Shown: in pieces, positions 6,957 through 58,467 of the stretch
How the letters are laid out: every line of letters begins with the position of its first letter
Position numbering within the stretch: the stretch's first letter is position 1
DNA from: Mobula hypostoma
Lineage: Eukaryota
Assembly: GCF_963921235.1 (NCBI RefSeq)
Contig: NC_086097.1
Location: forward strand, 165,666,001 to 165,730,000
Length of the DNA stretch: 64,000 nucleotides
Direction: 5' to 3'
Notes under the pieces: model-generated
What the model was told of the DNA's origin: nothing
What the model saw: only the letters and a program-made list of their open reading frames with translations
The model's database searches: none
Made by a program: the position numbers and the translations under genes

Positions 6957-7344
6957 GATTGACACATGAGTGTGCTGGAAATGGAAGGATATGGATGCTG
7001 TTCAGGGGGGAGAGCTTCAGTTCAATTTAGGATCATGTTCAGCATTGGGTGAAGGGCCATTTACTGTGCTGTATTATTCAATATTCTATCTTCTATATTC
7101 ATCCAAGATATTGTTCCTTCTGCCTATAAGCAGCACCAGATGAAAGCCTTTAAATCTGAAATCAAATTGAAGTTGAATTTATTGTTCTATGTCTGGACTA
7201 GTACCTGTACACGCATATGCAATTATAAAACACACTTGCAGCGGTATTATAGGCACTTAACATCATATTAAGCAGCATTCAGAAGAAAATATAAACATAA
7301 ATTATGTACAATTTTTACGAGAAGAACACAATTAGAACATCAAA

Positions 7345-7730
7345 ACACTCACAAAATGGTGGAGGAACTGAGCAGGACAGGCAGGCCACATCTAATCAGG
7401 GAGAACGGTTGATGTTTTGGGCTGAGATCCTCCTGATGAAGGGTCACAGCCCGAAGTATTGACTGTTTATCTCCCTTCATTGATGGTGCCTAACCTGCTG
7501 AGTTCCTCAGAAGGCGGGGGAGGGCAAGGAGGAGTGTAAGCTAGTAGGTGATAGGTGGGGTTAAAGGTGGACGGGGAGGGGCGATGGAAGCTAGGAGGTA
7601 ATGGGTGGAAGAGGTAAAGGGATGAAGGAGGAGGAATTTGATTGGAGAGGACAGTGGACCAAGTAATAAAGACAAGGAAGCGGGGAACCAGAAAGAGGTG
7701 ATGGACAAGTTTTAAGGGTGGAGGGAAAGG
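7345..7730. mobile_element. Degenerate Penelope-like terminal-repeat palindrome plus purine-rich 3' UTR fragment
   Basis: Inverted pLTR halves meet at ~7430; degenerate core CCTGATGAAGGG..CCCGAAG. Confidence 0.6.
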
Positions 7731-11215: not shown

Positions 11216-13244
11216 CAACAGAGGTTGGTTCCACCCAATTAAAGTCGAAGTTTATTGTTATATGCACAATTTTATGTACTTACAGATACAATAGAAATCT
11301 TACTTGGAATCTTGAATCATTTTGTTATGATTTAATGAAAAGTCAACCAAAATTTAAAGACTCACAAAACAAAATCAATCCTTTTCTAGTTCCATTTTTA
11401 TTTAATTTTCCTTTACCTCCATTATCTGCCATTCAGTATCTATGATCTCATTGAATGTCAGATCGGACTTGGAGACTGAACACAGGACATGGTACAGACC
11501 CTTTGGCTCATGATGTCTGATGACTACGATGCCAATTAAAACGAATCCTATCTGCTGGCACATGATCTTTATTCTAATTTCCCTGTTTGTTCATGTGTCT
11601 CTCTAAGTACTACTTAAATATATTTATAAAATGTATGTATTAAAAAATAAATAAGCTATTATATCTGCTTCCAGTGTTTTCACCACTTTTTAAATAAAAT
11701 TTGCCTTGTAAATCTCCTTTAAGGTTTCCCCTCTATCTACCCTATCTGCCATTTTCCTGATTCTGTGGTGGTATAATATGCTGATCACAGTGAAGACATC
11801 TGTTTGATGGTGTTGAAATCAAGCCTTGTAGATTGCAACAAAATTCATTTCGTAAGTGTTTTTCCTCATCTCCTGTTCACCCACATCCATTGCGCAGATG
11901 CATGCGTGTGCTAGTGTGCGCACACTTCCTTAGGTTATTTTTGCTTATGTACTCTCCTTGACTGAGTGGTAGCTTTCTTTAGAACTCCTTTATTACTCCC
12001 TGATCATTGTTAAGAAGGCCTGAGTGGTTGTTTTCCCAGATTTTGTAATATCTTTTAAAAATACATCTGCTTCACTGTTGTTTATAAAGTTTGTTGGTGA
12101 GTAGGGGATAGTTAGGATAGTTTATTCTAGTGCACTAAATTTTCATATGCTGGTTCATTCTTATTTGGTATTGGAAGCCAAATTTATTTATTATTTTCCT
12201 TTGTGTATTTATATAAGTATATCCTTTGAAAAGGATATTATTGTAATGTTGAATGAAATACTAGAATTATGGGACTGTGATATAAAGTAACTGGGGTTTT
12301 GTACCTATGGACACCAGATACTTGGGCAGTGTTCAAGAAACAAGGAGAAAATCGTTCTATTAAATAGCAGGGTACTTGATTTAGTCGTTGGTAGTTAAGT
12401 TCCTGTAACAGAAACCAGAATGAAGAACAAATTTATTGTGGGAACAAGAAGGAGGAATTGGTATGAATGTGCTGACCATGGCTTTGATTTTGCATCCACC
12501 TTCTACCAGAGCATGCACTGCTCATCTTGTTATATAACTGTTCTTTGTTTATGGTGATCTTCCTTTTCCTGAAGTCATGGTATTGAAAGGCTACTGCATT
12601 ATGAGCAATGGCCATCTACTACTGTGTAAAGGGGTGGGACAGTGGAGCGGATGTTATGGAGCCAACATTGATTACTGTGCCATAGAAGATGTAGGATTCT
12701 ACTTTTAATGGTAGAGAGAGGGTGCTTAAAGACATGGAAAGTAAGCATCCTTTATCTCAGGAATTAGATGTAAGAAGTGAAGCCATTACCTGCTGTCCTT
12801 TTAAAATGAGTAGCTTGCTATGTTGTTAGGATTTAATTGTATTGGAGGAACCTGGCAAGACCAGGTAAGGAGGGGAAATTTCCATCCCTGAAAAATTAGT
12901 GAACTGGATGAGTTTTTATTGAATTGCTGGAGGAACTCAGTCAGCCAAGCAGCATCTGTGGAGGAAAAGGAATTATCTAGAGTTCCAACCCAAATTGTTG
13001 ATAATTCCTTTCCCTTCACAGATTGAATTGTATTGAACTTCCCGATGGTGTGATTATTTGAAGTCATGACACTTAACCTATACTCTCAGGTTCCAGATAC
13101 TTGTAACTCACTGCTAAGTTCCAATGCCGCTAAGCAACTAAGTGAGGAAATCGTGAACACTTTGGCACACCAACAAGACATGGATTTAGATTGCATCATA
13201 AATGCTCTTTTCAGCATGTATCAAAACACCTTAGAGAAAATGAA

Positions 13245-13422
13245 CACACATAAAAGTTGCTGGTGAACACAGCAGGCCAGGCAGCATCTGTAGGAAGAGG
13301 TACAGTCGACGTTTCGGGCTGAGACCCTTCGTCAGGACTAACTGAAAGAAGAGCTAGTAAGAGATTTGAAAGTGGGAGGGGGAGATCCGAAATGATAGGA
13401 GAAGACAGGAGATGGGAGAAGA
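13245..13422 (-). mobile_element. Penelope-like element 3' end, 5'-truncated
   Basis: pLTR near-identical to those attached to GIY-YIG fragments at 21.5k and 42k. 14-bp TSD TTAGAGAAA(A/G)TGAA at 13231-13244 and 13423-13436. Confidence 0.85.
13304..13339 (-). ncRNA. Minimal type I hammerhead ribozyme (PLE-associated)
   Basis: Minus strand reads AGTC-CTGACGA-A-GGG-TCTCAG-CCC-GAAA-C-GTC-GACT: stem I AGUC/GACU, stem II GGG/CCC, palindromic ACGU in place of stem III. Confidence 0.8.
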
Positions 13423-13669
13423 TTAGAGAAAGTGAAATGCTTTAAGTCATTGGAAATGTGGCCATATCATTGCAGACTCCCACAAATTATATAAAGGTCA
13501 AAGAGTTTATTTTAATTACATTGGTTGATGGAAACCCAGTGTTCAAGTTTACTGTTGTAGACATACACAGGGTTTAAATGCCATAAAAATAAGATCTTTG
13601 CAGAAACTCAGTCCATTTCAAGGTGAGGGTAAACATTAAGTTAACATAACCTTAAATGAACATAACAAG

Positions 13670-17041: not shown

Positions 17042-18563
17042 CAGTGGACTCCAATTAATTGGACACATCAGGACCAGTACATTTTGGCCCGATTAAGTGG
17101 CTGCTCCAGTTAACTGACATTTCATGGAAATAGCTGAAAAGGTTAAAAAAAAAGTCAAACTAAAGCTGAGTAATAAATTATGTATTTAACTGAAATATAG
17201 AACAAATTAGAACATTACTAACGTTAATACAGAGCTATAAAATGGTGTATTAGTTTTAACGCAAACAACAGGAATTCTGCAGATGCTGGAAATTCAAGCA
17301 ACATACATCAAAGTTGCTGGTGAACGCAGCAGGCCAGGCAGCATCTCTAGGAAGAGGCGCAGTCAACGTTTCAGGCCGAGACCCTTCGTCAGGACTTGCA
17401 GCGAGAGGCCGAGTCAATAAAATATGAGTACCTGGGATCCTCAGAAGGTCCAAATTGAGAGGCTTGGAAACGAATCCTAAAGCCAACTGGAGTAAGTTGG
17501 CGACGGAGGCACGTTCCAAGAAAGGATATATGGCTGTGATAGCGAGATTGAGTCAAAGTATGGTCGAAAAGTTGAAGAGCCGAAGAAATTACAGATGGGG
17601 AGCAGTGAGAGATGGTTTCACTGAACTCCCGTCGAAGAGAGGATCTAAACTTCTTCGGTGTAGGCATCACCGGAAGAGGCTTCGCAGTAGTGAATTTAAA
17701 CGCAAACAACAGGAATTCTGCAGATGCTGGAAATTCAAGCAACATACATCAAAGTTGCTGGTGAACGCAGCAGGCCAGGCAGCATCTCTAGGAAGAGGCG
17801 CAGTCGACGTTTCAGGCCGAGACCCTTCGTCAGGACAAAGTCAATCCTGACGAAGGGTCTCGGCCTGAAACGTCGACTGCGCCTCTTCCTAGAGATGCTG
17901 CCTGGCCTGCTGCGTTCACCAGCAACTTTGATGTATGTTGCTATTAGTTTTAAATTGTTATTGATGGAGTTATCTATCCAGTGTACACTGTTGTGTTCTT
18001 TTGACTGTAAATGAACAAAATCAGTGTAGACATCTTGTGCAGATAACAGACAGCCTTCATACAATGCTTTGGATGATTCCATCCTACAAATCTTCTTTTT
18101 CATTATAACATTCAAGATGATTGTTGATACCTTCAAATTTTTTGTAGTCCCTGCATTGTTAAAATAGTGAAATCGTTCCATTTTCACTCTGGTCGTTTCT
18201 GGTATCTCCAAGCTTGAATGCTTGCAATCCCAGTAAGCAAGGCAATTATGAATTGTCTTAATGCTTATTTCTCACCAACTGTCCATGACAAAAATCACTG
18301 CTTTCTGAACACAAATACATTCAACTGATGCTATTTAAAAACTGTTTGCTTTAAACATGGTGTAGTGTCTTAATGGCCATGCAAGTGTGTGTGACTGATG
18401 CTACTTAAAAACTGTAGATCAACAATCTCCTGTCCCAATTAAGTGTCCCAAGTAAACTAAGATAACCCTAGCTGTTTTCTCAATTAGTTTTAGTTCTTTA
18501 AGAGTTGTCCCAAATAAGTGGCTGTCCCAATTAATCAATGGCCCAATTATCTGGAATCCACTG
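17042..18563. mobile_element. Tc1/mariner-pogo (Tigger-like) non-autonomous DNA transposon, interrupted by a PLE
   Basis: TA-CAGTGGACTCCAATTAATTGGAC ... GCCCAATTATCTGGAATCCACTG-TA: 19/23 TIR match and TA TSD. Partial left-end copy at ~20485-20660. Confidence 0.8.
17260..17941 (-). mobile_element. Composite Penelope-like insertion: two direct pLTRs around an ORF 5' segment, plus a third inverted pLTR
   Basis: 12-bp TSD TATTAGTTTTAA at 17248-17259 and 17942-17953. Hammerhead cores at 17361-17396 (-), 17802-17836 (-), 17845-17878 (+). Perfect 98-bp inverted repeat 17738-17835 / 17845-17942. Confidence 0.88.
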
Positions 18564-21550: not shown

Positions 21551-22208
21551 AGCAACACACATCAAAGTTGCTGGTGAACGCAGCAGGCCAGGCAGCATCT
21601 CTAGGGAGAGGTACAGTCGACGTTTCGGGCTGAGACCTTTCATCAGGACTAACTGAAGGAAGAACTAGTAAGAGATTTGAAAGTGGGAGAGGGAGGGGGA
21701 GATCCAAAATGATAGGAGAAGACAGGAGGGGGAGGGATGGAGCCAAGAGCTGGACAGTTGATTGGCAAAAGGGATATGAGAGGATCATGGGACAGGAGGC
21801 CTAAGGAGAAAGAAAAGGGGGAGGGGTGAAAAAAAACCCAAAGGATGGGCAAGGGGTATAGTCAGAAGAACAGAGGGAGAAAAAGGAGAGAGAGAAAGAA
21901 TGTGTGTATATAAATAAATAACAGATGGAGTACAAGGGGGAGGTGGGGCATTAGCGGAAGTTTGAGAAGTCGATGTTCATGCCATCAGGTTGGAGGCTAC
22001 CCAGACGGAATATAAGGTGTTGTTCCTCCAACCTGAGTGTGGCTTCATCTTTACAGTAGAGGAGGCCGTGGATAGACATGTCGGAATGGGAATGGGATGT
22101 GGAATTAAAATGTGTGGCCACTGGGAGATCCTGCTTTCTCTGGCGGACAGAGCGTAGGTGTTCAGCAAAATGATCTCCCAGTCTGTGTCGAGTCTGCGCT
22201 CTGTCCGC
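21551..22208 (-). mobile_element. Penelope-like element 3' end (GIY-YIG C-terminus, 3' UTR, pLTR with hammerhead at 21615-21650)
   Basis: RL.DHFAEH..PVATHFN..LRLEEQHLIFRLGSLQPDGMN; core CTGATGA..GAAACGTC on the minus strand. Confidence 0.88.
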
Positions 22209-24075: not shown

Positions 24076-24601
24076 AAAGAGAAATTACACACTGCAGATT
24101 GCAGTGAGCATAATTTGAGAGAGGTATATTTAGAAGTTTTGTCCACAGAACATCACTGTGGTACTGAGATAAGTTTTGTTTAAATTAAGAATAGGCTTAG
24201 GATGGGATACATGCACTTCATTGTGCCTTGTCCAAAAATACAGAACTTTTAGATAGATGCCAATATATCTAATAAGGAATTCAGGCAAAAATTCTTGTTA
24301 GAGTGTGGAACTTGTTACCACACAGAGCAGTTGATACTTTAAAACTGAGCTATTTATGACAATCTGGATAAGTACATTCTGCAAGAGAGAGAATATGTCA
24401 ATGGAGTGAGTTATTCTGTGGGGAGACCTGTGTACACGGTGTCTCTGCCACCCACTTACGCTGATCCCAGAATCATACAGAATGATGTAACATTCTGTGT
24501 AAATTTTCCGTCATCTATAGATGGGTGTAGTTGAGATCTTACTGTTTTACAAAAGTACTGCAGGTTCTGGAAATATGAAATAAAAACATAAAACCTTTGC
24601 A

Positions 24602-24793
24602 ACACACTCTAAATGCTGGAGGAACTCAGCAGGCCAGGCAGCATCTGTGGGGGGAAAAAAGTACAGTCGACGTTTCAGGCTGAAATATAGATGGAATTTT
24701 TTTTCCATAGATGCTGCCTAGCCTGCTGAGTTCCTCCAGCATTTTGTGTGTATTGTTTGGATTTCAAGCGTCCGCAGATTTTCTCTTATTTGT
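24602..24793. mobile_element. Palindromic Penelope pLTR insertion
   Basis: Inverted pLTR arms; 15-bp TSD CATAAAACCTTTGCA at 24587-24601 and 24794-24808. Confidence 0.85.
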
Positions 24794-30051: not shown

Positions 30052-30432
30052 CTTCTTCATCTGCCTTGCATGTTACACGCTTGGACGATCATGGTTCTCC
30101 ACATCGAACGATTCCTCGCAGCGTCAATGATATCTCGCACACTTAGATCTGCTAGTTCTTTCACAGTGTCCATATATTTTCTTCTTTGTCTTCCTCTTCC
30201 ACGTTTCCCAGGCATATGGCCTTGTAATGTAAGGCATTCTATTTCTCCCTTTCTGATGACATGGCCCAGGAATTTAAGTTTCCCCTCATTTAATGTTCTC
30301 ATTAAAGGTCTTTTTGTATGGGCACGTTGGAGTACTGTCTCATTAGTTACCCTATCTCTATATGATATTTTCAGCATTCTTCTAAGAAACCACATTTCTG
30401 TTGCTTCTAAGTTTCTTTGGAGTTCTGGTGTT
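30052..30432 (-). mobile_element. RTE-clade LINE, 3' part (split by the L1)
   Basis: TPELQRNLEATEMWFLRRMLKISYRDRVTNETVL..LKFLGHVIR..GKRGRGRQ; short (GAA)n tail. Confidence 0.9.
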
Positions 30433-30839
30433 GAAAACTCGTTCAAATTCGGAAACTGATCAAACAATGATTTATAAAATTCCGGACAATCCATATTAGG
30501 AGCATAAACATTAACCAAAACTACTTTTTTATTAAATAGTAAACCACTAACCAATAAAAATCTACCATTCGGATCAGAGATAATATCCTGTTGTATAAAA
30601 GTAACTGAGGAGTCTATAAAAATAGAGACGCCTCGAATCTTAGCATTGGAGTTCGAATGAAATTGTTGTCCCTTCCAGAATTTGAAAAAACGTAGTCTGT
30701 CCCCCCTCCGTACATGGGTCTCTTGTAAAAATAAAATTTGTGCTTTAAGTCTCCGGAACACTTTAAAAACTTTTTTCCTTTTAATAGGATGATTAAGACC
30801 ATTAGTATTCCAGGAGACAAAATTAATAATAGACTCCAT
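30432..30839 (-). pseudogene. L1 ORF2 N-terminal endonuclease, first 136 codons (inverted segment)
   Basis: MESIINFVSWNTNGLN..FLQETH..RGVSIFI..DPNGRF..NVYAPN: APE-type endonuclease motifs. Confidence 0.9.
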
Positions 30840-33800
30840 AAATCCTAAAGTCAACCCATAACAAGGAGGATTGACAATAGGCGCGACCCACAAACCCGGA
30901 GAGGAAACAGAACATACAAAAGATACCGGGGAAAAGGACGCAACCAATACTTCAATAATGTATATAGCCCAAAGAGAAACAAACTAAAACGTGAAGCCCC
31001 GCCCACCCCCCCCCCCCCCAAGACCCCAAGGCGAAATCTAAAGCAGACCCGCCAGAAAGAAGCAAGCGCTAAAACTACCCCCATGACTTCCGGTATACGC
31101 TCCCTAAAAAAAAGGTATAAATATGAAAAGGATCAGCTAATTGTAAAACAGTAAAAAAATAAGTAAAAAAAAGTTAGCTCAATTAAAATACACACAGAAC
31201 AGAACAAAAGCCGGAAAGTATATATTAAAAAAAAACCACAATAAACCTCAAACTCATGAATAGACACAGCAACAAAAAAAATAGGATTATTAGTGGTTTA
31301 TTATTTAATAAAAAAGTAGTTTTGGTTAATGTTTATGCTCCTAATATGGATTGTCCGGAATTTTATAAATCATTGTTTGATCAGTTTCCGAATTTGAACG
31401 AGTTTTCATTGATTTGGGGCGGAGATCTTAATACCTGTTTATCTCCAGCTTTGGACCGTTCGGCTCCTTTACGGACTTTACCTAATAAATCTGCAAATTT
31501 GATTAATTTTTTCCTTTCTGATTCTGGGTCGACGGACATTTGGCGTTTTCTGCATCCTCAGGAAAAAGATTTTTCCTTTTTTTCACATGTTCATCATTCC
31601 TATTCAAGAATTGATTATTTTTTCATTGATTCTCGTCTCATTCCTTCAGTGATTAAATGTGATTATGATTCTATAACCATTTCGGATCATGCTCCACTTA
31701 AGCTTTCTATTAAAATTATGGCCAATATACCAAACAATAGACAATGGCGTTTTAATTCGCTGTTGCTTCAGGACTCGGACTTTGTTAATTTTATGAATGA
31801 ACAGATTGAGCTTTTTTTTACAATTAACCATACAGAAGATATTTCGGTTAACACTCTTTGGGACACTTTTAAAGCCTATATTCGGGGTCAGATTATTTCG
31901 TATTCCGTTGCTTTGAGGAAGAAACAGAAGCAGGAGGAGATGGCAATTGTGGACAAGATTAAAGAAATTGATAAGAAATATGTTATGGCTCCTTCTGAGG
32001 AGCTATACAAACAAAGAACTGAACTTCAAATGGAACACAGTTTACTACTCTCGTCCTCGATTGTAAACCAATTAAAGAAAACAAGAAGTGATTTTTATGT
32101 TCACAGTGATAAAATTGGCAAGCTGCTGGCTAATCAATTGAAATCTAATTATGTTAAATCTCAAATCAATCAGATTTATAACCAAAATGATCGATTGATA
32201 TTGGATCATGTGGGGATTAATCAAACCTTTTGTGATTTTTATTCTTCTTTATATCAATCAGAGTCTCCTCGAGATTCTAAATATATGAATGATTTTTTAG
32301 ATATAGTTAGACTTCCCTCAGATTTCACAGGATATGTCTTCTTTATTAGATACTTCCATTACAATGGATGAGATTAAGAATGTTATTTTTTCTATGAATC
32401 TGGGGAAAGCTCCTGGCCCTGATGGGTTTACCGTTGAATTTTATAAATGTTTTGCTTCTTTATTGATTCCTTGGCTCTATAAGGTTTTTGAGGCTTCTTT
32501 GAAACTTGGTAAACTTCCGGAATCTTTTAATAGAGCATCAATTTCTTTAATACTAAAGAAGGATAAAGACCCTGCTCAATGTGCATCTTATAGACCAATA
32601 TCTTTATTAAATGTTGATTCTAAAGTTTTTTCTAAGTTATTAGCAAATAGACTAGAAAAAGTACTTCCTTCTATTATTTCGGAAGACCAAACGGGTTTTA
32701 TTAAAGGTCGTTACTCTTTTTATAATATTCGTACATTGTTAAATATCGTTTATACTCCCTCACAAAATGTTCCTGAGTGTGTTATTTCTTTAGATGCCGA
32801 GAAAGCTTTTGATAGAGTAGAATGGCCTTATTTATTTAAGGTGCTTGAAATGTTTAATTTTAGCTTGAAATTTATATCCTGGATTAAACTGTTATATCAC
32901 TCCCCTGTAGCCTCGGTTCGTACTAACTCCTTAAACTCACCTTTTTTTCCTCTCTTTCGTGGTACTCGACAAGGCTGTCCTCTTAGTCCCCTATTATTTG
33001 ATATTGCATTAGAACCTCTTGCAATTGCTATTCGAGAATCTTCAAATATTACTGGGATAACTCGGGGATTAAAGTCCCATAAATTATCACTCTATGCTGA
33101 TGATTTACTTTTATATATTTCTAATCCTGAGAGATCCATTCCTGCTGTTTTAGAGTTATTAGCACAATTTGGTCTTTTCTCAGGTTATAAATTAAATCTT
33201 AGTAAGAGTGAACTTTTTCCGATTAATAAACATCTTCCCTTATATTATAAATTTCCATTTAAATTGATTAATAATTACTTTTCATATCTTGGGATTAAAA
33301 TTACTTGTAAACATAAAGATTTATTTAAGACTAACTTTTTACCATTAATAGACCATATTACTCAACTTTCATCTAAATGGTTTCCCTTATATTTAACTTT
33401 GATTGGTCGTATTAATGCAGTTAAGATGTTTTTTTTGCCAAAATTTTTATATGTGTTTCAGGCATTACCAATTTTCGTTCCTAAATCTTTTTTTGATAAA
33501 GTTGACTCTAAAATTTCTTCATTTATTTGGCAGAATAAGAATCCGAGACTGGGTAAAATACATTTACAGAAAGCTAAGAGAGATGGAGGTTTAGCATTAC
33601 CTAACTTTAGATTTTATTATTGGGCTATTAATATTCGACATATGAAATTTTGGTTACTTGACCGGGACATACTATCTATTCCTAAATGGGTAGCATTGGA
33701 ATTACAATCTGTTCAGGGTTATACACTTGGTTCTATTTTAGGTTCCTCTCTTCCTTTTGATTCGAAACGCCTTAAGCAGGTCTCTAACCCGATAGTTAAA

Positions 33801-35128
33801 TATGCTTTGCGCATTTGGTTTCAATTCAGAAAATTTTTTGATCTTAATCAATTCGGGTTAGCGATTCCTATTTTAGGTAACATATTTTTTCCTCCCTCTT
33901 TTACGGATCGCGCTTTTCAAACTTGGAAGACTAAGGGTATTTTACGGTTTTTGGATTTATTTTTAGATGGTTCCCTTATGTCTTTTGAACAATTATCTAA
34001 TAAATATAACTTATCAAGAATACATTTTTTTAGATATTTACAAGTTAGAAATTTCCTAAGTACTATACTTTCTTCCTTTCCAATGCTTCCTCCTATATAT
34101 ATTTTAGATTCGATAATTAACCTTAATCCATGTCAGAAAGGTGCATCGGCTATGATTTATAATATTATTATGAAACTTAGGAAAGCTCCATTTGATAAGA
34201 TTAGGGTAGATTGGGAACAGGAATTGGGGCTTACCATTTCTGTGGATGATTGGGGGCAGATTTTACAATTAGTTAATACTTCCTCTATTTGTGCTAAACA
34301 TTCCCTAATTCAATTTAAAGTGGTTCATAGAGCACATATGTCCAAAGATAAGTTAGCGCGTTTTTACTCGCATATTAATCCTTTCTGTGATAGATGTTCG
34401 GGGCAGATAGCCTCTTTAACTCATATGTTTTGGTCTTGCCCTACTTTGGAAACTTTTTGGAGAGATATTTTCAATATTATTTCTAAGGTATTAAATATAG
34501 ATATCTCTCCTCACCCTATTACTGCTATCTTTGGACTACCTAAAATTTCTAGTAATCTTTCCCCTTCAGCCCGTAGAATGATTGCATTTCTTACTTTAAT
34601 GGCGAAAAGATGTATTTTACAACATTGGAAAGAGCTTAATGCTCCAACTACCTTTTTTTGGTTTTCTCAGACGATTTTATGTTTGAATCTGGAGAAAATT
34701 AGAAGTAATCTTTATGATTCTTCATTTAAATTTGAACAGATTTGGGGACCTTTTATTCGATATTTTCATTTAATGTAATATTTACCCTTCTTGTTTTTTT
34801 TTCACTGTTTTAATGGAGGTCGGGATTGAGGACGTGATTTTAAGTTTAACTCTGTTTGGTTTCAAGTTAGCCCATTGCTTTGCTTTGCTTTTAGTTAGTT
34901 GCACGGTGGGTTTTTTTTTTTTTTCTTTTTTTTTCCATTGATATATATAAAATCTAGTATACTATTATGTTATCTTGCTTTCTTATGCTTAAATTACATT
35001 GTTTGTAGTATTTTCTTTTTGGTATTGTTATCTTTTGGAATTTTATTATACTTTAACATTGTATTAATGTTTATATGGCTTACCTTTTTTGTATACTTAC
35101 TCAATAAAAAGATTTAAAAAGAAAGAAA
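30433..35128 (+). mobile_element. L1-clade LINE, 5'-truncated and 5'-inverted
   Basis: 14-bp TSD GGAGTTCTGGTGTT at 30419-30432 and 35129-35142. Inverted segment 30432-~31289, forward segment 31290-35128. AATAAA at 35103 and an A/GAAA tail. Confidence 0.95.
31290..34778 (+). pseudogene. L1 ORF2 (rest of endonuclease, RT, CCHC) with a single +1 frameshift near 32304
   Basis: GGDLN, YSRIDYF, SDH (endonuclease); KAPGPDGF, YRPISLLN, DAEKAFD, GTRQGCPLSP, YADD (RT); CDRCx8Hx4C. Confidence 0.95.
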
Positions 35129-42050: not shown

Positions 42051-42828
42051 AACAACACACATCAAAGTTGCTGGTGAACGCAGCAAGCCAGGCAGCATCT
42101 CTAGGAAGAGGTACAGTTGACGTTTCGGGCCGAGACCCTTCGTCAGGACTAACTGAAGAAAGAGCTAGTAAGAGATTTGAGAGGGGGAGGGGGAGATCCA
42201 GAATGATAGGAGAAGACAGGAGGGGGAGGGATGGAGCCAAGAGCTGGACAGGTGATTGGCAAAAGGGATATGAGAGGATCATAGGATAGGAGGCCCAGGG
42301 AGAAGGAAAAGGGGGGGAAGGAAAACTCAGAGGATGGGCAAGGCGTATAGTCAGAGGGACAGAGGGAGAAAAAGGGGAGAGAGAGAGAAAGAATGTGTGT
42401 ATATAAATAAATAATGGATGGGGTACGAGGGGGAGGTGGAGCATTAGCGGAAGTTAGAGAAGTCAGTGTTCATGCCATCAGGTTGGAGGCTACCCAGACA
42501 GAATATAAGGTGTTGTTCCTCGAACCTGAGTGTGGCTTCATCTTTACAGTAGAGGAAACCGTGGATAGACATATCAGAATGGGAATGGGATGTGGAATTA
42601 AAATGTGTAGCCACTGGGAGATCCTGCTTTCTCTGGCGGACAGAGCATAGGTGTTCAGCAAAATGATCTCCCAGTCTGCGTCGGGTCTCGCCAATATATA
42701 GAAGGCCACATTGGGAGCACCAGACGCAGTATATCACCCCAGCTGACTCACAGGTGAAGTGTCGCCTCACCTGGAAGGACTGTCTGGAGCCCTGAATGGT
42801 GGTAAGGGAGGAAGTGTAAGGGCAGGTG
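42051..42828 (-). mobile_element. Penelope-like element 3' end with a complete GIY-YIG domain and a hammerhead (42115-42150)
   Basis: FTCESAGVIYCVWCSQCGLLYIGETRRRL..EH..HFN..EEQHLIF..QPDGMN (ORF 42444-42770). Confidence 0.92.
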
Positions 42829-43710
42829 TGGAATGTACAGTTTTTTACCCATCAGAAGTGTAGAAGCAACGCCTGATAATGACAGAGCAATCACGTCTGT
42901 CTGTGAACTTAGGGCAGAAGTCGCTAATAAGGGAAGTTTCTCCTGTTCCACCTGAAGCATCCGAAAATGGCCATTGTAATCAGCCTGCACCATAGTCTCC
43001 AAGGCATTTTTTTGGTATTGTACCAAGTTTTTACTTTCTAATCCCTTCTATCTACACAATGTCCATATCCCACCATTCTGTGCTATCTATGAACCTCTTA
43101 AATGCCTCTATTGGATTTGCCCCCACTGCCACTCCAACAAGGCATTCCAGGCATATATTAATCTAACTTGTTTAAACCATGGCTGGTCTCCTGCAGAAAT
43201 GTGGTACACAAATTTTCAGTTCTTCTTTGTGGTTCTGGTAGAACAAAAGCACTTGCACCAGGATGACCAAATAGCTAATACTCAGATTTCAATGGGTAAA
43301 ATAAAAATCAGCACTTTTTGGTCTGTGGAGTGCCTTCTATTGATGTTTTAGTAAAACAAAGTGTAGGTCACATCCTTGCCCTAAACCTATCTTGCATACA
43401 ATTTTTTTTAAATTTCTAGGTTATTACTGAGCCTTGCATGGGACTCTTACTGTAAATCAATGACTATCTGTGCTATCCCATTCTTGTGGCAAGGCAATGG
43501 GTATACAGTAATTTTGAATTGAAATAAACAAAACACTATTTCTAAACAACCAACTCAAAAGAAAATCTCAGCAATGTTTCTCAAAAGCAGTACTGAGAAA
43601 AATTAAAATGAAGTATCTTTTGCGTTATTAAGAGCCTTCTATTGAGGGCTTAGAAAAACTGAGAGTGTAGTTCACACACTTAGGCCAAACCTAACTTGCA
43701 TCTTGAAGTT

Positions 43711-43911
43711 ACATACATCAAAGTTGCTGGTGAACGCAGCAGGCCAAGCAGCATCTATAGGAAGAGGCGCAGTGGACGTTTCAGGCCGAGACCCTTCGTC
43801 CCTGAAACGTCCACTGCGCCTCTTCCTATAGATGCTGCTTGGCCTGCTGCATTCACCAGCAACTTTGATGTATGTTGCTTGAATTTCCAGCATCTGCAGA
43901 ATTCCTGTTGT
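43711..43911. mobile_element. Palindromic Penelope pLTR insertion
   Basis: 15-bp TSD TTGCATCTTGAAGTT at 43696-43710 and 43912-43926; arms join at ~43800 inside the hammerhead. Confidence 0.9.
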
Positions 43912-44399
43912 TTGCATCTTGAAGTTGTTTTGTTACAGACATTCTGTTTATTATTTATCTTTGGTGTATTGTAATCTGAGTCACAATCAAAGACAGACCA
44001 CATGGTTTATTGTGACTTTGTTTTCCTCCATTTAACGTCAGAGTTGTCTTTGCGGGTAGCTCCTAAGTAAAACATTGAATGAGCTGGCCTTAAACCACTG
44101 ACATGCATTCCTGTTTGTCTGTTGCCAGTTTTGCAAAATTTGGATTTTTTTTTTCCCTTGCAATGTCTGTAAACAGGGTTCAGTTTTCATGATGTAATTT
44201 CTGGCAAAAGCTTTTTAATTCCTTTGCCAATTGTGTTAAAACTTAGAATCACTTCATGAGATGAAATGAGACACTTCCATTAATGTAATGGTTTTCAAAG
44301 CTTTTGGGATGTTCCAAAGCTCTTTACAGCCAAAAAGCTGAAGGGAAGTGCAGAAAACACCACTGTCTTGTTGCACACAGTAAGATCCTGTGAGTATCA

Positions 44400-50179: not shown

Positions 50180-53100
50180 CAACACACAGCAGGACAGGCA
50201 GCATCTATGGAAAAGAGTGAAAAGTCAATATTTTTGGCTGAGACCTTGGAAAGAAAGAGAAGTCAGTGTAAGAAGGTGGGTTGAAGGGAGGAAGGAGTAC
50301 AAGGTGGTAGATGATAGGTGAAACCAGGGAAGAGGGTGAAGTAAACAACTGGAAAGTTGATTGGTGAAAGAGATAAAGGGCTGGAGAAGGGGGAATCTGA
50401 TTGGAGAGGACAGAAGAAAGGGAAGGAAGGAGGAGCAGCAGAGGGTGATGATGGGTTTGGTTCATACCATCAGGTTGGAGGCTACCCAGTTGGAATACAG
50501 GGTGTTACTCCTCCAACCTGAGTGTGGCCTCATTGTGGCAGTAGAGGAGGCCATGGACTGACATGTTGGAATGGGATTGGGAAGTAGAATTGAAATGGGT
50601 GGCTACCCGGAGATCCCAATTTTCCAAGGACCCTAGACACCTTCAAACTATTTACTGACCAACCTCTAACTCCAACTCCAGCCTGGAGCTTGATCAACAG
50701 CACCTCTAGGCCGAGACTTTACCCTCTCTTCCCCTCTTCCCCTCTTCTCAGATATTACCAACTCTCTTCCTCTCTCTAGTCCCAGCTCTCACCCATGCCA
50801 GGTCTTCACAATTTCCTCTGACCTACTCCCTTCCGAGGCAGAATGTCCTGTACTCAGTAAGGGCCTTACCTTTATCCCCCTACATCCACACCTCAGTGAG
50901 TTCCATGCCCGCCATGATGCTGAGCTCTTCTTCTGTTGCCTCTGACTCTGAGCCTACTTCTTTGGCAAGGACTCTCCAGCCTGTACTGATCACCCCTTCT
51001 CCTGTCTTCAACCCTCCTACCCTTCCAGGACACCCCGCTCTGGTCTTCTGCTTGCTCTCAATCTTTTTATTGTTAATTGCCAATGAGACATCAACAGTCT
51101 TGACTTTAACCCTTCTTTCTCCAGTTGTAACCTCACTCTTTCTGATCATGCTGCTCTCGCTCTCTCAGCACCATCAAACCCACAGATAATGGGTGCTATA
51201 GTAGTCTGGCGTACTGACTTCTACCTTGCTGAGGCCAGGCAGCAACTCTCAGACACCTCCTCTCACTTGCCCCTCAAACAGGACCCCTCTAAAGAGCAAC
51301 AGGCCATTGTCTCCCACACCATCATCAGTGTTAACGCTGTGGATCTCCCATCCACAGCCACCAACCTCACAGTTCCCTTACCCTGCACCTCCCGTTTTTA
51401 CCTCCTACCCAAGATCCACAAACTTGCCTGTCCAGGTGGACTCGGTGTTTCTGCTTGTTCCTGCCCCACCAAACTTGTATCTGCATACCTCACCTCTGTT
51501 TTATCCCCCCACTGGTTCAGTCCCTCTCACCTACATCCGTGACACTTCCCACACTCTTGATCTTTTCAATGACCTTAATGTTCCCTGACTTCAATTGTCT
51601 CATTTTCACTATGGATGTCCAGTCCTTCTACACCTCCATCCCCCCATCAAGAAGGCCTTGTAGTTCTCTGCTTCTTTTTGGATACCAGACCCAACCAGTC
51701 CCCGTCCACCACCACTCTCCTCTGTCTGGTGGAACTAGTCCTCATCCGCAATAATTTCTTCTTTGGCTCCTCCCACTTCCTTCAAGCAAGCGGTGTAGCC
51801 ATGGGCACCTGCATGGGTCCCAGCTCTGCCTGCTTTTGTTGGAATAATCCATGTTCCAAGTCTACACCGGTATCGCTTCCCAACTCTTCCTACGCTACAT
51901 CGACAACTGCATTGGCGCTGCTTCCTGCACCCATGCTGAGCTCATTGACTTCACCAACTTTACCTCCAACTTCCACCCTGCTCTCAAATTTACTTGATTC
52001 ATTTCTGACACCTTACTCACTTTCTGGATCTCTTTGTCCCCATCTCTGCAGACAGTCTATCTACGGATATATCTTATAAACCTATTGATTCTCACAGCTA
52101 CCTGGACTATACCTCTTCCCACCCTGTCACTGGTGAAAATGCAACCCCCTTCTGCTCTTAGGATGTGGCTTTTCATTTCAGAACTGTTGTGATGTTGTCC
52201 TCATTCAAAGAAAGGGGCTTCCCTTCCTCCACCATCAACACTTCCCTAACTGGCATCTCTCGATATTGTGCACGTCTGCCTCACCACTTTCTCCCGCCGC
52301 CACATCAGGAATAGAGTTCCACTAGCCTCCGCATCCAGCACTTAATTCTCCATAATTTCCACCATCTCCAATGGGATCCCATCACCAAGCACATCTTTCC
52401 CTCCCCCTGCCCTCTCCCCCCCCACCAGCATTCTGCTTTCTATAAAGATCACTCCCTACATGACTCCATTATTCACACATCCCTCCACTGATACAACCCC
52501 CCCGCCCCCCCCCGTAATTATCCTTGCAAGCAGAACAAATGCCACACCTTCTCCCAAACCACTTCCCTCATGACCATTCAGGTCCCCAAAGAGTCTTTTC
52601 ACCTGTGAGCCTGTTGGGGCCATCTACTGTATCCGGTGCTCTCAGTGTGGCCTCCATTATATCGTGGAGACTCGGCGTAGATTGGGGCACTAATTCACCA
52701 AGCACCTATGCTCCATCTGTCAGAAAAATCGGGATCTCCCAGTAGCCACCCATTTAAATTCTACTTTCTACTTCCCATTCCAACATGTCAGTCCGTGGTC
52801 TCCTCTACTGCTGCAATAAGGCCACATTCAGGTTGGAGGAGTAACATCTTGTATTCTTTCTAGGTAGCTTCCAACCTGGTGGCATGAACATTGATTTTTA
52901 GAACTTCTGGTAATTGCCCCCTTCACCATTTCTGTCATTTCCACTTCCCTCTCACCTGCCCATTTCCTACCTCCTTTCTCTAGCCCTTTATCTCTTTCAC
53001 CAATCAACTTCCCATCTCTTTACTTCACCTCTTCCCAATCTCCCAGTTTCACCTATCACCTACCACCTTATACTTCTTCCCCCCACCTTATTAATCTGAC

Positions 53101-53255
53101 TTATCCTCTTGCTTTCCAGTCCTGATGAAGAGTCTTGGCCAGAAATGTCAACTGTTTACTCTTTTCCATAGGTGCTGCCTGGCCTGCTGAGTTCTTCCAG
53201 CAATTTTGTGTGTGTTGCTTTGGATTTCCAGCATCTGCAGATTTTTCATGTTTAT
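50180..53255 (+). mobile_element. Degenerate Penelope-like element (RT, GIY-YIG, pLTR) with an inverted 3'-end copy at its 5' side
   Basis: FYLLPKIHK, MDVQSFYTSIP, GVAMGTCMGPS, LRYIDN (YIDD-derived) at 51397-51910. GIY-YIG remnant ~52600-52912. Degenerate hammerhead 53118-53153. Inverted copy 50180-50620. Confidence 0.85.
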
Positions 53256-54039
53256 CATTTCAAGGCTTTGGGCTACCATTGTTAAATGACTTGCTGATGG
53301 GAGGAGGGGACTATTTAGGTGCAGATTCAAGGAGACTTGAAAGATGTGGCAGAGTTGTAGCCAAGAAGCTTATCCAAGGCATAATTATACTCATTGAAAA
53401 CTTTTCCTAATGCCGCACTGCAACAGCTTGAAATAGAATTGGCACTGGAAAATTTTGGCAGTCCCCACAGAAGATAAGTGTTTTTGCAGAAGATGAGCTT
53501 CCTTGGCATCTCTGAACACAACAAGGCAAGGGAACTCATCAGGGCATCACACCTTACTAGGTGTGCATTGGCAACTCTTTGGAGCAACCTTCCTTCCACT
53601 CTGCACCATGTGGCTATGCCTTATCACAGAATGAGCAAAAGGCTATTCAGCACACCAGCTCCACGTAGTCTCACTGCAAAAGCAGTCCAGTTAGCCCTAC
53701 TCCCTTGTCCAGTCTCTTCAATTGGTTTCCCTTCAGATACTTACCCACATTCCTGATGAAAGTTACGATTTACTCTGCTTCACTAAAACCTCTTGACCCA
53801 AAGAACTTGTCATGCAACTTTTGTTTCTTTTTGCCAATGCTTTCATTCTAATTCCCCTTGTCCCTAATTCTTCTGAAGGGTATCAGTTTGTATTTTTTAA
53901 AAAAGTCTATAGTATTTATCAGATACTTTTCTCTGTTCCAAGTTTCTCCAGGCTATCTAAAAACCTGATGTACCTAATCTCTAGAATATTTCACGATCTC
54001 TCCCATTACCCATCCAAAGCCATCCCATCTTTCCTATAA

Positions 54040-54246
54040 CAAGAGGAATTCTGCAGATGCTGGAAATTCAAGCAACACACATCAAAGTTGCTGGTGAACG
54101 CAGCAGACCAGGCAGCATCTCTAGGAAGAGGTACAGTCGACGTTTTGGGCCGAGACCCTTCGTCAGGACTAGGTTAGTCGACTGTACCTCTTCCTAGAGA
54201 TGCTGCCTGGCCTGCTGCGTTCACCTGCAACTTTGATGTGTGTTGC
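54040..54246. mobile_element. Palindromic Penelope pLTR insertion
   Basis: 16-bp TSD CCCATCTTTCCTATAA at 54024-54039 and 54247-54262. Confidence 0.9.
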
Positions 54247-57915: not shown

Positions 57916-58251
57916 TAATGAATTGGTTTACTCCGGTACACCAGTAATATTTATGATGAATATAACAAAAGTTTAACATTATGATGTTATAAAACAGCAA
58001 TTTGCATACACTTGTATAAGTCTGTACTCTTCCACTTTCGTAGACCATCTCCCTGATACATCATCCCACCAGAGAGGTAGAGGCAGGCTGCTCCTACCAA
58101 TGCTGAGTTGCTTTTACTCAACATCCTTGCCCTTTGAAATATGCAAGTTCTTTACCATAGATGCTCTTGCTGTACCTGTTTAGGCAAAAATGGGTATTAG
58201 GGTACAAGGTAGTATGTACGTAGGTACTAAATGGGAAGGGAGAAACTAGAG

Positions 58252-58467
58252 CAACACACATAAAAGTTTCTGGTGAACGCAGCAGGCCAAACAGCATCTC
58301 TAGGAAGAGGTGCAGTGGACGTTTCAGGCCGAAACCCTTCATCAGGGTCTCGGCCTGAAACGTCGACGGCACCTCTTCCTAGAGATGTTGCCTGGCCTGC
58401 TGCGTTCACCAGCAACTTTGATGTGTGTTGCTTGAATTTCCAGCATCTGCAGAATTCCTGTTGTTTG
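58252..58467. mobile_element. Palindromic Penelope pLTR insertion
   Basis: 15-bp TSD AGGGAGAAACTAGAG at 58237-58251 and 58468-58482; arms overlap at AGGG (~58344) inside the hammerhead. Confidence 0.9.

What the first reader, a model, noticed from the sequence alone, without database searches (positions are those of the whole stretch)
13304..13339. Minimal hammerhead ribozyme in a high-copy Penelope terminal repeat
Seen: 36 nt on the minus strand, AGUC CUGACGA A GGG-ucucag-CCC GAAA C GUC^GACU, with predicted cleavage between 13308 and 13307. Near-intact copies also occur at 17361, 17802, 17845 (+), 21615 and 42115; degenerate ones at ~7430, 29043, 53118, 54135 and 58315. Known: PLE repeats encode minimal type I hammerheads lacking a proper stem III, with a palindrome (here ACGU) that allows cleavage as dimers. 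More than ten related copies in 64 kb imply a very large genomic ribozyme load (inference).
Basis: partly seen in the sequence, partly recalled or inferred. Interest (0 to 1): 0.75.

Follow-up and report, generated by a model that had tools for sequence, protein, structure and literature searches.

The report
Penelope hammerheads, 100,000 per genome
This is a real copy of the small, predicted self-cutting RNA motif that Penelope-type jumping genes are already known to carry, present about 100,000 times in this genome, and the cut-short copies tend to begin at the motif's front edge rather than at its predicted cut site, which suggests the RNA is likely copied uncut or re-joined.

Summary
13304-13339 (minus strand) is a complete minimal type I hammerhead motif in the terminal repeat of a Penelope-like element with Neptune-type domains. 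In 20 of 20 long-ORF copies the motif lies about 300 nt after the RT/GIY-YIG ORF. This kind of motif is in print (PMC4209133). The focal copy is a dead 170-180 nt stub.

Measured here: 100,307 core-intact motif matches in 3.48 Gb, control 0, about ten times the highest count I found in print. Among 165 young arms, 20 begin at the 5' edge of stem I (6.2% per base), against 0.76% per base at the cleavage site, which is near background. In 30 of 30 head-to-head pairs one arm is tailed and one tail-less.

Cleavage is untested. The monomer is predicted to misfold, and 84 of 100 listed young copies carry G-U at 10.1-11.1. So the ribozyme load is a motif load, not shown activity. Earlier scan notes report the same end clustering on other DNA of this and other shark/ray genomes.

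Verdict: new member of a known kind, with a testable clue to the template's 5' end.

The parts
13304..13339 (-). Minimal type I hammerhead motif: stem I AGUC/GACU, core CUGACGA, extra A, stem II GGG/CCC, GAAA, palindrome ACGU in place of stem III, predicted cut between 13308 and 13307
   Evidence: layout matches the min-HHR features of PMC4209133
13243..13411 (-). 5'-truncated, tail-less stub of the Penelope-like element that holds the motif (about -104 to +65 from the cut site); no ORF
   Evidence: 91-93% identical over about 170 nt to copies at 21554-21728 and 42054-42222
13231..13239 (.). Candidate target-site duplication (9 nt), copy 1
   Evidence: same 9-mer on both sides of the stub (position read)
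13423..13431 (.). Candidate target-site duplication (9 nt), copy 2
   Evidence: position read
17258..17396 (-). Hammerhead plus tail unit that begins exactly at the first base of stem I; motif at 17361-17396 (C17U)
17398..17839 (-). Hammerhead (17802-17837), tail and 5' part of the ORF; with the unit at 17258-17396 it forms a natural tandem of two same-sense motifs 441 nt apart
   Evidence: 95% identical to the 5' end of the tandem full-length copy in L177
17843..17942 (+). Inverted, tail-less arm joined head to head at the hammerhead's 5' edge
21553..22199 (-). Truncated copy with the GIY-YIG C-terminus, 3' non-coding region and hammerhead 21615-21650 (G10.1A)
   Evidence: tblastn 94% to P0001 residues 540-621
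42053..42830 (-). Truncated copy with Cys linker, GIY-YIG domain and hammerhead 42115-42150 (G1.1A)
   Evidence: Pfam GIY-YIG E 6e-4, below the curated cut-off; tblastn 92%
50184..53253 (+). Older, frameshifted long copy: inverted 5' piece (50184-50623, minus), RT and GIY-YIG remnants (51192-52907), decayed hammerhead 53118-53153 and tail
54038..54246 (.). Head-to-head fold-back; minus arm begins at -32 and carries G12A (54135-54170); plus arm begins at -2
43711..43926 (.). Head-to-head fold-back joined inside the hammerhead (arms at -25 and -10)
58241..58467 (.). Head-to-head fold-back joined inside the hammerhead (arms at -28 and -20)
24599..24792 (.). Older-subfamily fold-back with part of the motif
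7344..7505 (.). Decayed older-subfamily fold-back with a degenerate motif at about 7430

Best explanation
The motif is the minimal hammerhead in the terminal repeat of an RT/GIY-YIG Penelope-like retrotransposon with Neptune-type domains, and this copy is a cut-short stub that is likely dead; the ribozyme would cut only in the parent element's RNA, likely as a dimer through ACGU or with the element's protein. Shown: the element's anatomy (unit about 3.5 kb; motif about 300 nt after the ORF stop and, in tandem copies, about 140 nt before the likely ATG), two 3' ends at about +66 and +102, one of each in every head-to-head pair, and an excess of 5' ends at the first bases of stem I but not at the cut site. 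Inferred: the enzyme nicks both target strands, starts one cDNA at each of two internal sites downstream of the motif, and copies through an uncut (or re-joined) hammerhead. It often runs off an RNA end lying at the foot of the hammerhead hairpin. My odds for that end: transcription start at the A of YYANWYY 0.45; an exonuclease-blocking hairpin or protein footprint 0.25; cDNA snap-back or hairpin-triggered release 0.2; other 0.1. Identity of the motif and element: 0.95. Whole mechanism as stated: about 0.65.
For: Motif on the ORF strand about 300 nt after the stop in 20 of 20 long-ORF loci. P0001 has RT YIDD, a CxxxxCxxC linker and GIY-YIG with CxxC and two His (Pfam RVT_1 E 6e-5 and GIY-YIG E 6e-4, both under the curated cut-off). 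The linker marks Neptune/Nematis (PMC8557442 passages). Direct tandem pLTR-ORF junctions in 7 of 30 loci chosen for the ORF 5' part. 3' ends are bimodal; 30 of 30 adjacent pairs are long plus short, as expected from the two RT start sites and two-strand priming shown for an anole PLE (PMC11167929). 5' ends: 20 of 165 at -32 to -30, 6.2% per base, against 0.78 (-61 to -35), 1.76 (-29 to -20) and 0.76 at the cut site (8 seen, 4.9 expected, p 0.13). Genome-wide loss per base between probes: 0.53, 1.22, 3.0, 0.77%. 4,684 copies have a non-T base before AGTCCTGA and 28 of 30 inspected are true truncations there. In PMC11167929 HHR mutants do not change insertion, uncut RNA is the main template, and cleavage needs the protein.
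Against: No cleavage was measured and no RNA data were usable. After correcting probes with 66 long copies, the genome-wide loss flattens to 0.47, 2.05, 2.27, 0.91% per base, a plateau over -19 to -38 and not a spike. None of 7 long copies that reach a direct upstream pLTR ends at -31 (ends at beyond -399, -178, -81, -20, -18, -6, +6), which does not support a main transcript start there. No excess of G before A-31 (25 of 100 listed, hand count), so no cap signature. ViennaRNA DNA folds do not put the cDNA 3' end in a snap-back at -31. Arms of one insertion are not independent, apparent ends shift by 1-3 nt through microhomology, and much of the sample comes from the first 3 Mb of one contig. 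The clade call rests on motifs, not a tree.
Confidence: 0.65

Rival explanations
1. The ribozyme cuts efficiently in tandem transcripts, the unit is ligated to a circle, and RT starts internally on the circle and crosses the re-joined site (the Cervera and De la Pena model).
For: Proposed in PMC4209133. It also predicts no excess of ends at +1, and it allows copies that run past the upstream motif (L177, L180, L197).
Against: A circle has no end at -31, so the peak needs a further cause. In the anole PLE no RNA-seq reads began or ended at the cut site (PMC11167929). The double-hammerhead fold scores -13.9 kcal/mol against -29.0 for the best dimer duplex (nearest-neighbour energies ignore tertiary contacts).
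Confidence: 0.17
2. The motif is catalytically vestigial in this lineage and is kept as a protein-binding hairpin or promoter piece next to the RT start region.
For: Monomer minimum-energy fold is a rod that pairs the core GACG with CGUC (-12.9 against -7.5 kcal/mol for the open hammerhead shape). 84 of 100 listed young exact copies have U at 11.1 instead of the conserved C (hand count). Core and stems are no better conserved than +21 to +68 (p 0.45). 8 of 9 Xenopus retrozyme dimers did not cleave (bioRxiv 2026.07.22.740005).
Against: All 12 core positions have the hammerhead base as majority in both young and old subfamilies, including CpG-prone G12 and C17, while the flanks turned over. The homologous anole motif cleaves once protein is bound.
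Confidence: 0.12
3. The AG at the foot of stem I is a 3' splice site, as in D. virilis Penelope, and splicing or bound splicing factors set the 5' ends and switch the ribozyme.
For: A pyrimidine tract and YAG precede the motif in both subfamilies, with TACTAAC in some young copies. The D. virilis intron ends at helix I (PMC4209133; PMC2377424 passages).
Against: The truncated copies keep the AG and carry no shared upstream exon. The young subfamily has no GT at the ORF stop. Only 2 ORF-end-to-motif junctions exist in the genome, both explicable as microhomology deletions.
Confidence: 0.05
4. The motif is a chance resemblance inside an ordinary repeat.
For: No Rfam hammerhead hit; the loose pattern is near chance in the window.
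Against: Full core, both stems, extra base and palindrome at the position where PLE hammerheads are known; descriptor 10 against 0 in shuffles; conserved across subfamilies.
Confidence: 0.01

Closest known systems
Minimal hammerheads (min-HHR) in pLTRs of metazoan PLEs (Cervera and De la Pena 2014, PMC4209133; parts 1-2 of 4 read)
   Same: Type I, no helix III, palindromic 15.2-16.2, extra base between A9 and 10.1, short helix I (4-5 bp), mostly single dispersed motifs from truncated PLEs, close pairs on opposite strands; reported there for Xena, Poseidon and Neptune of fishes.
   Different: Helix II is short (3-4 bp, against 7-8 bp in Schistosoma). Most young copies have G10.1-U11.1. At least 100,307 core-intact matches against about 9,000 (Xenopus) and 4,000 (coelacanth), counted by different descriptors. 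No cartilaginous fish in the parts I read.
Poseidon_Ac (PAc) of Anolis (Frangieh et al. 2024, PMC11167929; parts 1-2 of 4 read)
   Same: Two RT start sites downstream of the hammerhead that define an optional 30-40 nt tail; both strands primed; uncut RNA as template.
   Different: Poseidon clade, ORF starts inside the hammerhead; here the likely ATG lies about 140 nt after the cut site. No 5'-end clustering is described in the parts read.
Neptune/Nematis EN+ PLE insertion units (Craig et al. 2021, PMC8557442, passages; Arkhipova et al. 2013, PMC3846280, passages)
   Same: C-terminal GIY-YIG, CX2-5CxxC linker, partial tandems, inverted 5'-truncated copy, one-sided tail, target-site duplication.
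   Different: Copy number: 97,100 exact young 3' anchors against about 37,000 for the most abundant Naiad named there. Those passages do not tie the truncation points to the ribozyme's edge.
Non-LTR retrozymes (Li et al. 2026, bioRxiv 10.64898/2026.07.22.740005; parts 1 and 3 of 5 plus passages)
   Same: PLE-derived type I hammerheads; present in one chondrichthyan tested.
   Different: Retrozymes are head-to-tail tandem arrays (maximum 14,255 copies, axolotl); these are dispersed stubs and head-to-head pairs.

Membership tests
min-HHR of metazoan PLEs | Conserved core CUGANGA, GAAA, UH | tested here: met
   majority base in young and old copies
min-HHR of metazoan PLEs | Type I topology with helix I of 4-5 bp | tested here: met
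   AGUC/GACU plus a U-G pair
min-HHR of metazoan PLEs | Extra nucleotide between A9 and 10.1 | tested here: met
   A at -20, 95-100% of copies
min-HHR of metazoan PLEs | G10.1-C11.1 pair | tested here: inconclusive
   Met in the focal copy; 84 of 100 listed young copies have U11.1 (hand count)
min-HHR of metazoan PLEs | No helix III; palindromic 15.1-16.1 | tested here: met
   ACGU
min-HHR of metazoan PLEs | Location in a PLE pLTR, sense strand | tested here: met
   20 of 20 long-ORF loci; tandem junctions
min-HHR of metazoan PLEs | Self-cleavage as dimer or with protein | not testable with these tools
   Only folding energies
EN+ Penelope-like elements | Single ORF with RT followed by C-terminal GIY-YIG with CCHH-type residues | tested here: met
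   P0001; Pfam scores are below the curated cut-offs, motifs read directly
EN+ Penelope-like elements | pLTR tandems, inverted 5'-truncated copy, one-sided tail, target-site duplication | tested here: met
Neptune clade | CX2-5CxxC linker between RT and EN (shared with Nematis) | tested here: met
   CKRNKCYTC in P0001 (definition)
Neptune clade | Placement in an RT phylogeny with named Neptune references | not tested
   No named reference sequences were at hand; Nematis is not excluded by a tree
Non-LTR retrozymes | Head-to-tail tandem arrays of hammerhead-bearing units | tested here: not met
   Copies are dispersed stubs or head-to-head pairs; one partial tandem at 17258-17839

The most novel reading that the evidence does not exclude
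The hammerhead marks the first nucleotide of a short PLE RNA (stem I A = start or protected 5' end). That RNA is copied uncut, by a dimeric enzyme that primes both target strands from two different internal start sites, giving on the order of 100,000 ribozyme-headed stubs and fold-backs. The motif would then act mainly as a 5'-end and template-defining element, with cleavage held off during copying, and this genome would carry the largest hammerhead motif load I found any record of.
Probability: 0.35. Interest if true: 0.68.

Novelty: new member of a known kind. Interest (0 to 1): 0.42.

Why it matters
The function of PLE hammerheads is stated to be unclear (PMC8557442 passage). A genome with about 100,000 young copies gives a statistical record of where the enzyme starts and stops. 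It shows no excess of ends at the cut site, a clear excess at the motif's 5' edge, and strict pairing of one tailed with one tail-less arm. That extends an in vitro result from one lizard element to a second clade in a genome, and makes sharp predictions for 5'-end sequencing. If even a small share of intronic sense copies cut, the host cost would be visible as an orientation bias. The motif class itself is known, so the value lies in scale and in the mechanistic clue.

Tried and rejected
Rfam scan: no hammerhead family hit; the miRNA hits are the fold-backs. RNA evidence: no RNA holder listed on record; only contigs of guessed type, one marked probably DNA, could be laid. Their joints skipping about 310 nt from ORF end to motif are marked 'between: not known' and fit older subfamilies with a diverged 3' region, so they are no evidence for splicing; contigs cannot show RNA ends. 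Spliced retrocopies: 2 matches genome-wide, not informative. Simple cDNA snap-back as the source of fold-backs: rejected as the general cause, because partner arms start at many positions and always from the other 3' start. One search listed 31 pairs, of which 3 were false cross-pairings within the window; the adjacency-checked count is. The column-conservation p value against near flanks (2e-6) is inflated because some old copies are truncated at -31 and columns are not independent, so I rely on the majority-base comparison. The 10 of 48 differences at +21 to +68 are inflated by a one-base alignment shift. Lunse et al. 2017 (dimer cleavage of PLE hammerheads) is not held; I know it only as cited in PMC6765202 (passages), and its counts may exceed those I compared with. 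Searches for prior reports in cartilaginous fish or of truncation at the motif (listings only, except the papers named) found none. The library lacks most subscription papers, and I did not open supplements of PMC4209133 or the 2026 preprint, which may hold chondrichthyan counts.

Full report
Coordinates below are counted from the predicted cut: the first base after it is +1, C17 is 0, and the A that opens stem I is -31.

Observation. The minus strand from 13339 to 13304 reads AGTC CTGACGA A GGG TCTCAG CCC GAAA C GTC GACT. This gives a 4-bp stem I, the full core, an extra A after A9, a 3-bp stem II closed by G10.1-C11.1, and ACGU in place of stem III. A loose hammerhead pattern is only weakly enriched in the window (15 against 6.5), and Rfam has no hit. 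The family motif is not chance: 49,156 exact matches of a 34-nt pattern and 100,307 of a core pattern in 3.48 Gb, with reversed controls of 0. A structural descriptor found 10 motifs in 900 kb of random genome and none in three shuffles. In that random sample 89 of 164 pieces span the whole motif in any state of decay, which extrapolates to roughly 340,000 (inference).

The host element. The stub at 13243-13411 matches longer copies at 21553 and 42053, which carry the end of a GIY-YIG domain. In 20 of 20 loci picked for long open frames, the motif lies on the ORF strand about 300 nt after the stop. The 621-residue frame P0001 has RT motifs, a CKRNKCYTC linker and a GIY-YIG domain with CxxC and histidines. 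That linker defines Neptune and Nematis (PMC8557442, passages); I built no tree. The nearest named protein relatives are from rays (76-91%) and sharks (63-70%). In 7 of 30 loci chosen for the ORF's 5' part, a direct upstream repeat runs through the motif and tail into the ORF start. The unit is about 3.5 kb and the likely ATG lies near +140. Non-inverted stubs show duplications of about 9-15 nt on both sides (read by eye; 9 nt for the focal copy). This is the known PLE layout.

Is the motif under selection? Between 26 young and 44 old copies the majority base differs at 3 of 36 motif positions, all CpG sites, against 23 of 29 upstream and 6 of 16 at +5 to +20. The parent elements therefore kept the motif while its flanks turned over. 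It is not better conserved than +21 to +68 (p 0.45), which is likely the enzyme's binding and start region. Against strong catalytic selection, 84 of 100 listed young copies have U at 11.1 (hand count). The monomer's best fold is an inactive rod spanning -32 to +5 (-12.9 kcal/mol), and the best dimer is a plain duplex (-29.0), not the double hammerhead (-13.9). This fits published low activity of min-HHRs even as dimers (PMC4209133) and protein-dependent cleavage of the anole motif (PMC11167929).

What the copies' ends record. I collected 165 distinct young arms chosen only by a 3' anchor (900 kb random, anchored loci from the first 3 Mb of contig C1, and the window). Copies within 200 nt of a locus edge and one duplicate were dropped. 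Their 3' ends fall at about +63 to +70 or +95 to +108. In 30 of 30 adjacent head-to-head pairs one arm has the long end and one the short. That matches two internal RT start sites and priming from both nicked strands, as shown in vitro for PAc. Their 5' ends: 20 at -32 to -30 (6.2% per base at risk), 1.76% at -29 to -20, 0.78% at -61 to -35, and 0.76% at -2 to +4 (8 seen, 4.9 expected, p 0.13). The peak has p 2e-6 even against the neighbouring rate, though arms are not fully independent. Eleven of the 20 are inverted arms and 9 are direct.

Genome-wide check. Of 97,100 exact young anchors, 83,754 have the expected 6-mer at +8, 72,501 at -19, 64,158 at -29, 48,966 at -38 and 41,061 at -61. Raw loss is 0.53, 1.22, 3.0 and 0.77% per base. 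Correction with 66 long copies gives 0.47, 2.05, 2.27 and 0.91, which is a plateau and not a spike. A direct test found 4,684 copies with a non-T base before AGTCCTGA, about twice my prior estimate for an even plateau. Of 30 inspected, 28 are true truncations, 1 is a point change and 1 has an old-type upstream region. The composite at 17258-17942 has three consecutive segments starting at -31, -30 and -29.

How it likely works. The parent RNA is bound by the element's protein, both target strands are nicked, and two cDNAs start at about +66 and +102. They pass the cut site without excess loss, so the template is uncut or re-joined there; I cannot separate these. Many stop at the foot of the hammerhead hairpin. 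The A at -31 sits in YYANWYY in both subfamilies (TTAGTCC, CCAGTCC; initiator consensus recalled), so a transcription start is my leading guess. Two results weigh against it: no excess of G before it (25 of 100), and none of 7 long copies with an upstream repeat ends there. A nuclease block by hairpin or protein, and hairpin-triggered release, remain open. A splice-site reading, suggested by the D. virilis intron that ends at helix I, found no support.

Comparison and novelty. The motif class, its PLE location, dimer dependence and the tail and inversion layout are in print. The highest counts I saw in print are about 9,000 min-HHRs, 14,255 retrozymes and about 37,000 Naiad copies. I found no paper on cartilaginous-fish PLE hammerheads or on 5' ends clustering at the motif, with the limits given under Tried and rejected. 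After my analysis, the scan's earlier notes showed the same clustering and two-arm priming reported repeatedly on other DNA of this genome and of other shark and ray genomes. These are unchecked AI notes and add no independent support. An earlier look-up by sequence returned nothing.

Verdict. A real feature and a new member of a known kind. The single copy is ordinary. The scale and the end statistics give a moderately interesting, directly testable clue to an open question. Interest 0.42.

Noticed in passing
window 31229-34778 (+), with 30057-30983 (-): L1-type LINE with an open 823-aa RT frame and an endonuclease frame; its 5' part is inverted, with a 119-nt 99% inverted repeat at 30432-30550 / 31290-31408. 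Looks young.
   Followed up: no
window 17258-17942: Internally deleted composite with two same-sense hammerheads 441 nt apart plus an inverted third; a ready natural substrate for a dimer-cleavage test.
   Followed up: partly
genome-wide, list: The youngest subfamilies appear to have fixed U at position 11.1; the extra A could then pair with it and shift the stem II register.
   Followed up: partly
L201 and L202 (centre of each locus): Two copies in which the ORF end is joined directly to the hammerhead, lacking the 300-nt pyrimidine-rich region; microhomology deletion or rare spliced retrocopy.
   Followed up: no
P0002, P0012: Ray gene models named as a kinase-domain isoform and a chitinase-domain isoform contain this element's ORF; exonisation or annotation artefact.
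   Followed up: no
L208 and L309: Two short stubs starting at +9 share the same upstream flank, suggesting later duplication of the surrounding repeat or a preferred target.
   Followed up: no
window 53335-53473 (+): Weak U4 snRNA-like match, 29.7 bits against a gathering score of 46; possibly a decayed pseudogene.
   Followed up: no
window 13340-13365 (+), upstream of the motif on the element strand: Pyrimidine tract with YAG, and TACTAAC in some young copies, just before stem I; acceptor-like in both subfamilies although the sequence has turned over.
   Followed up: partly
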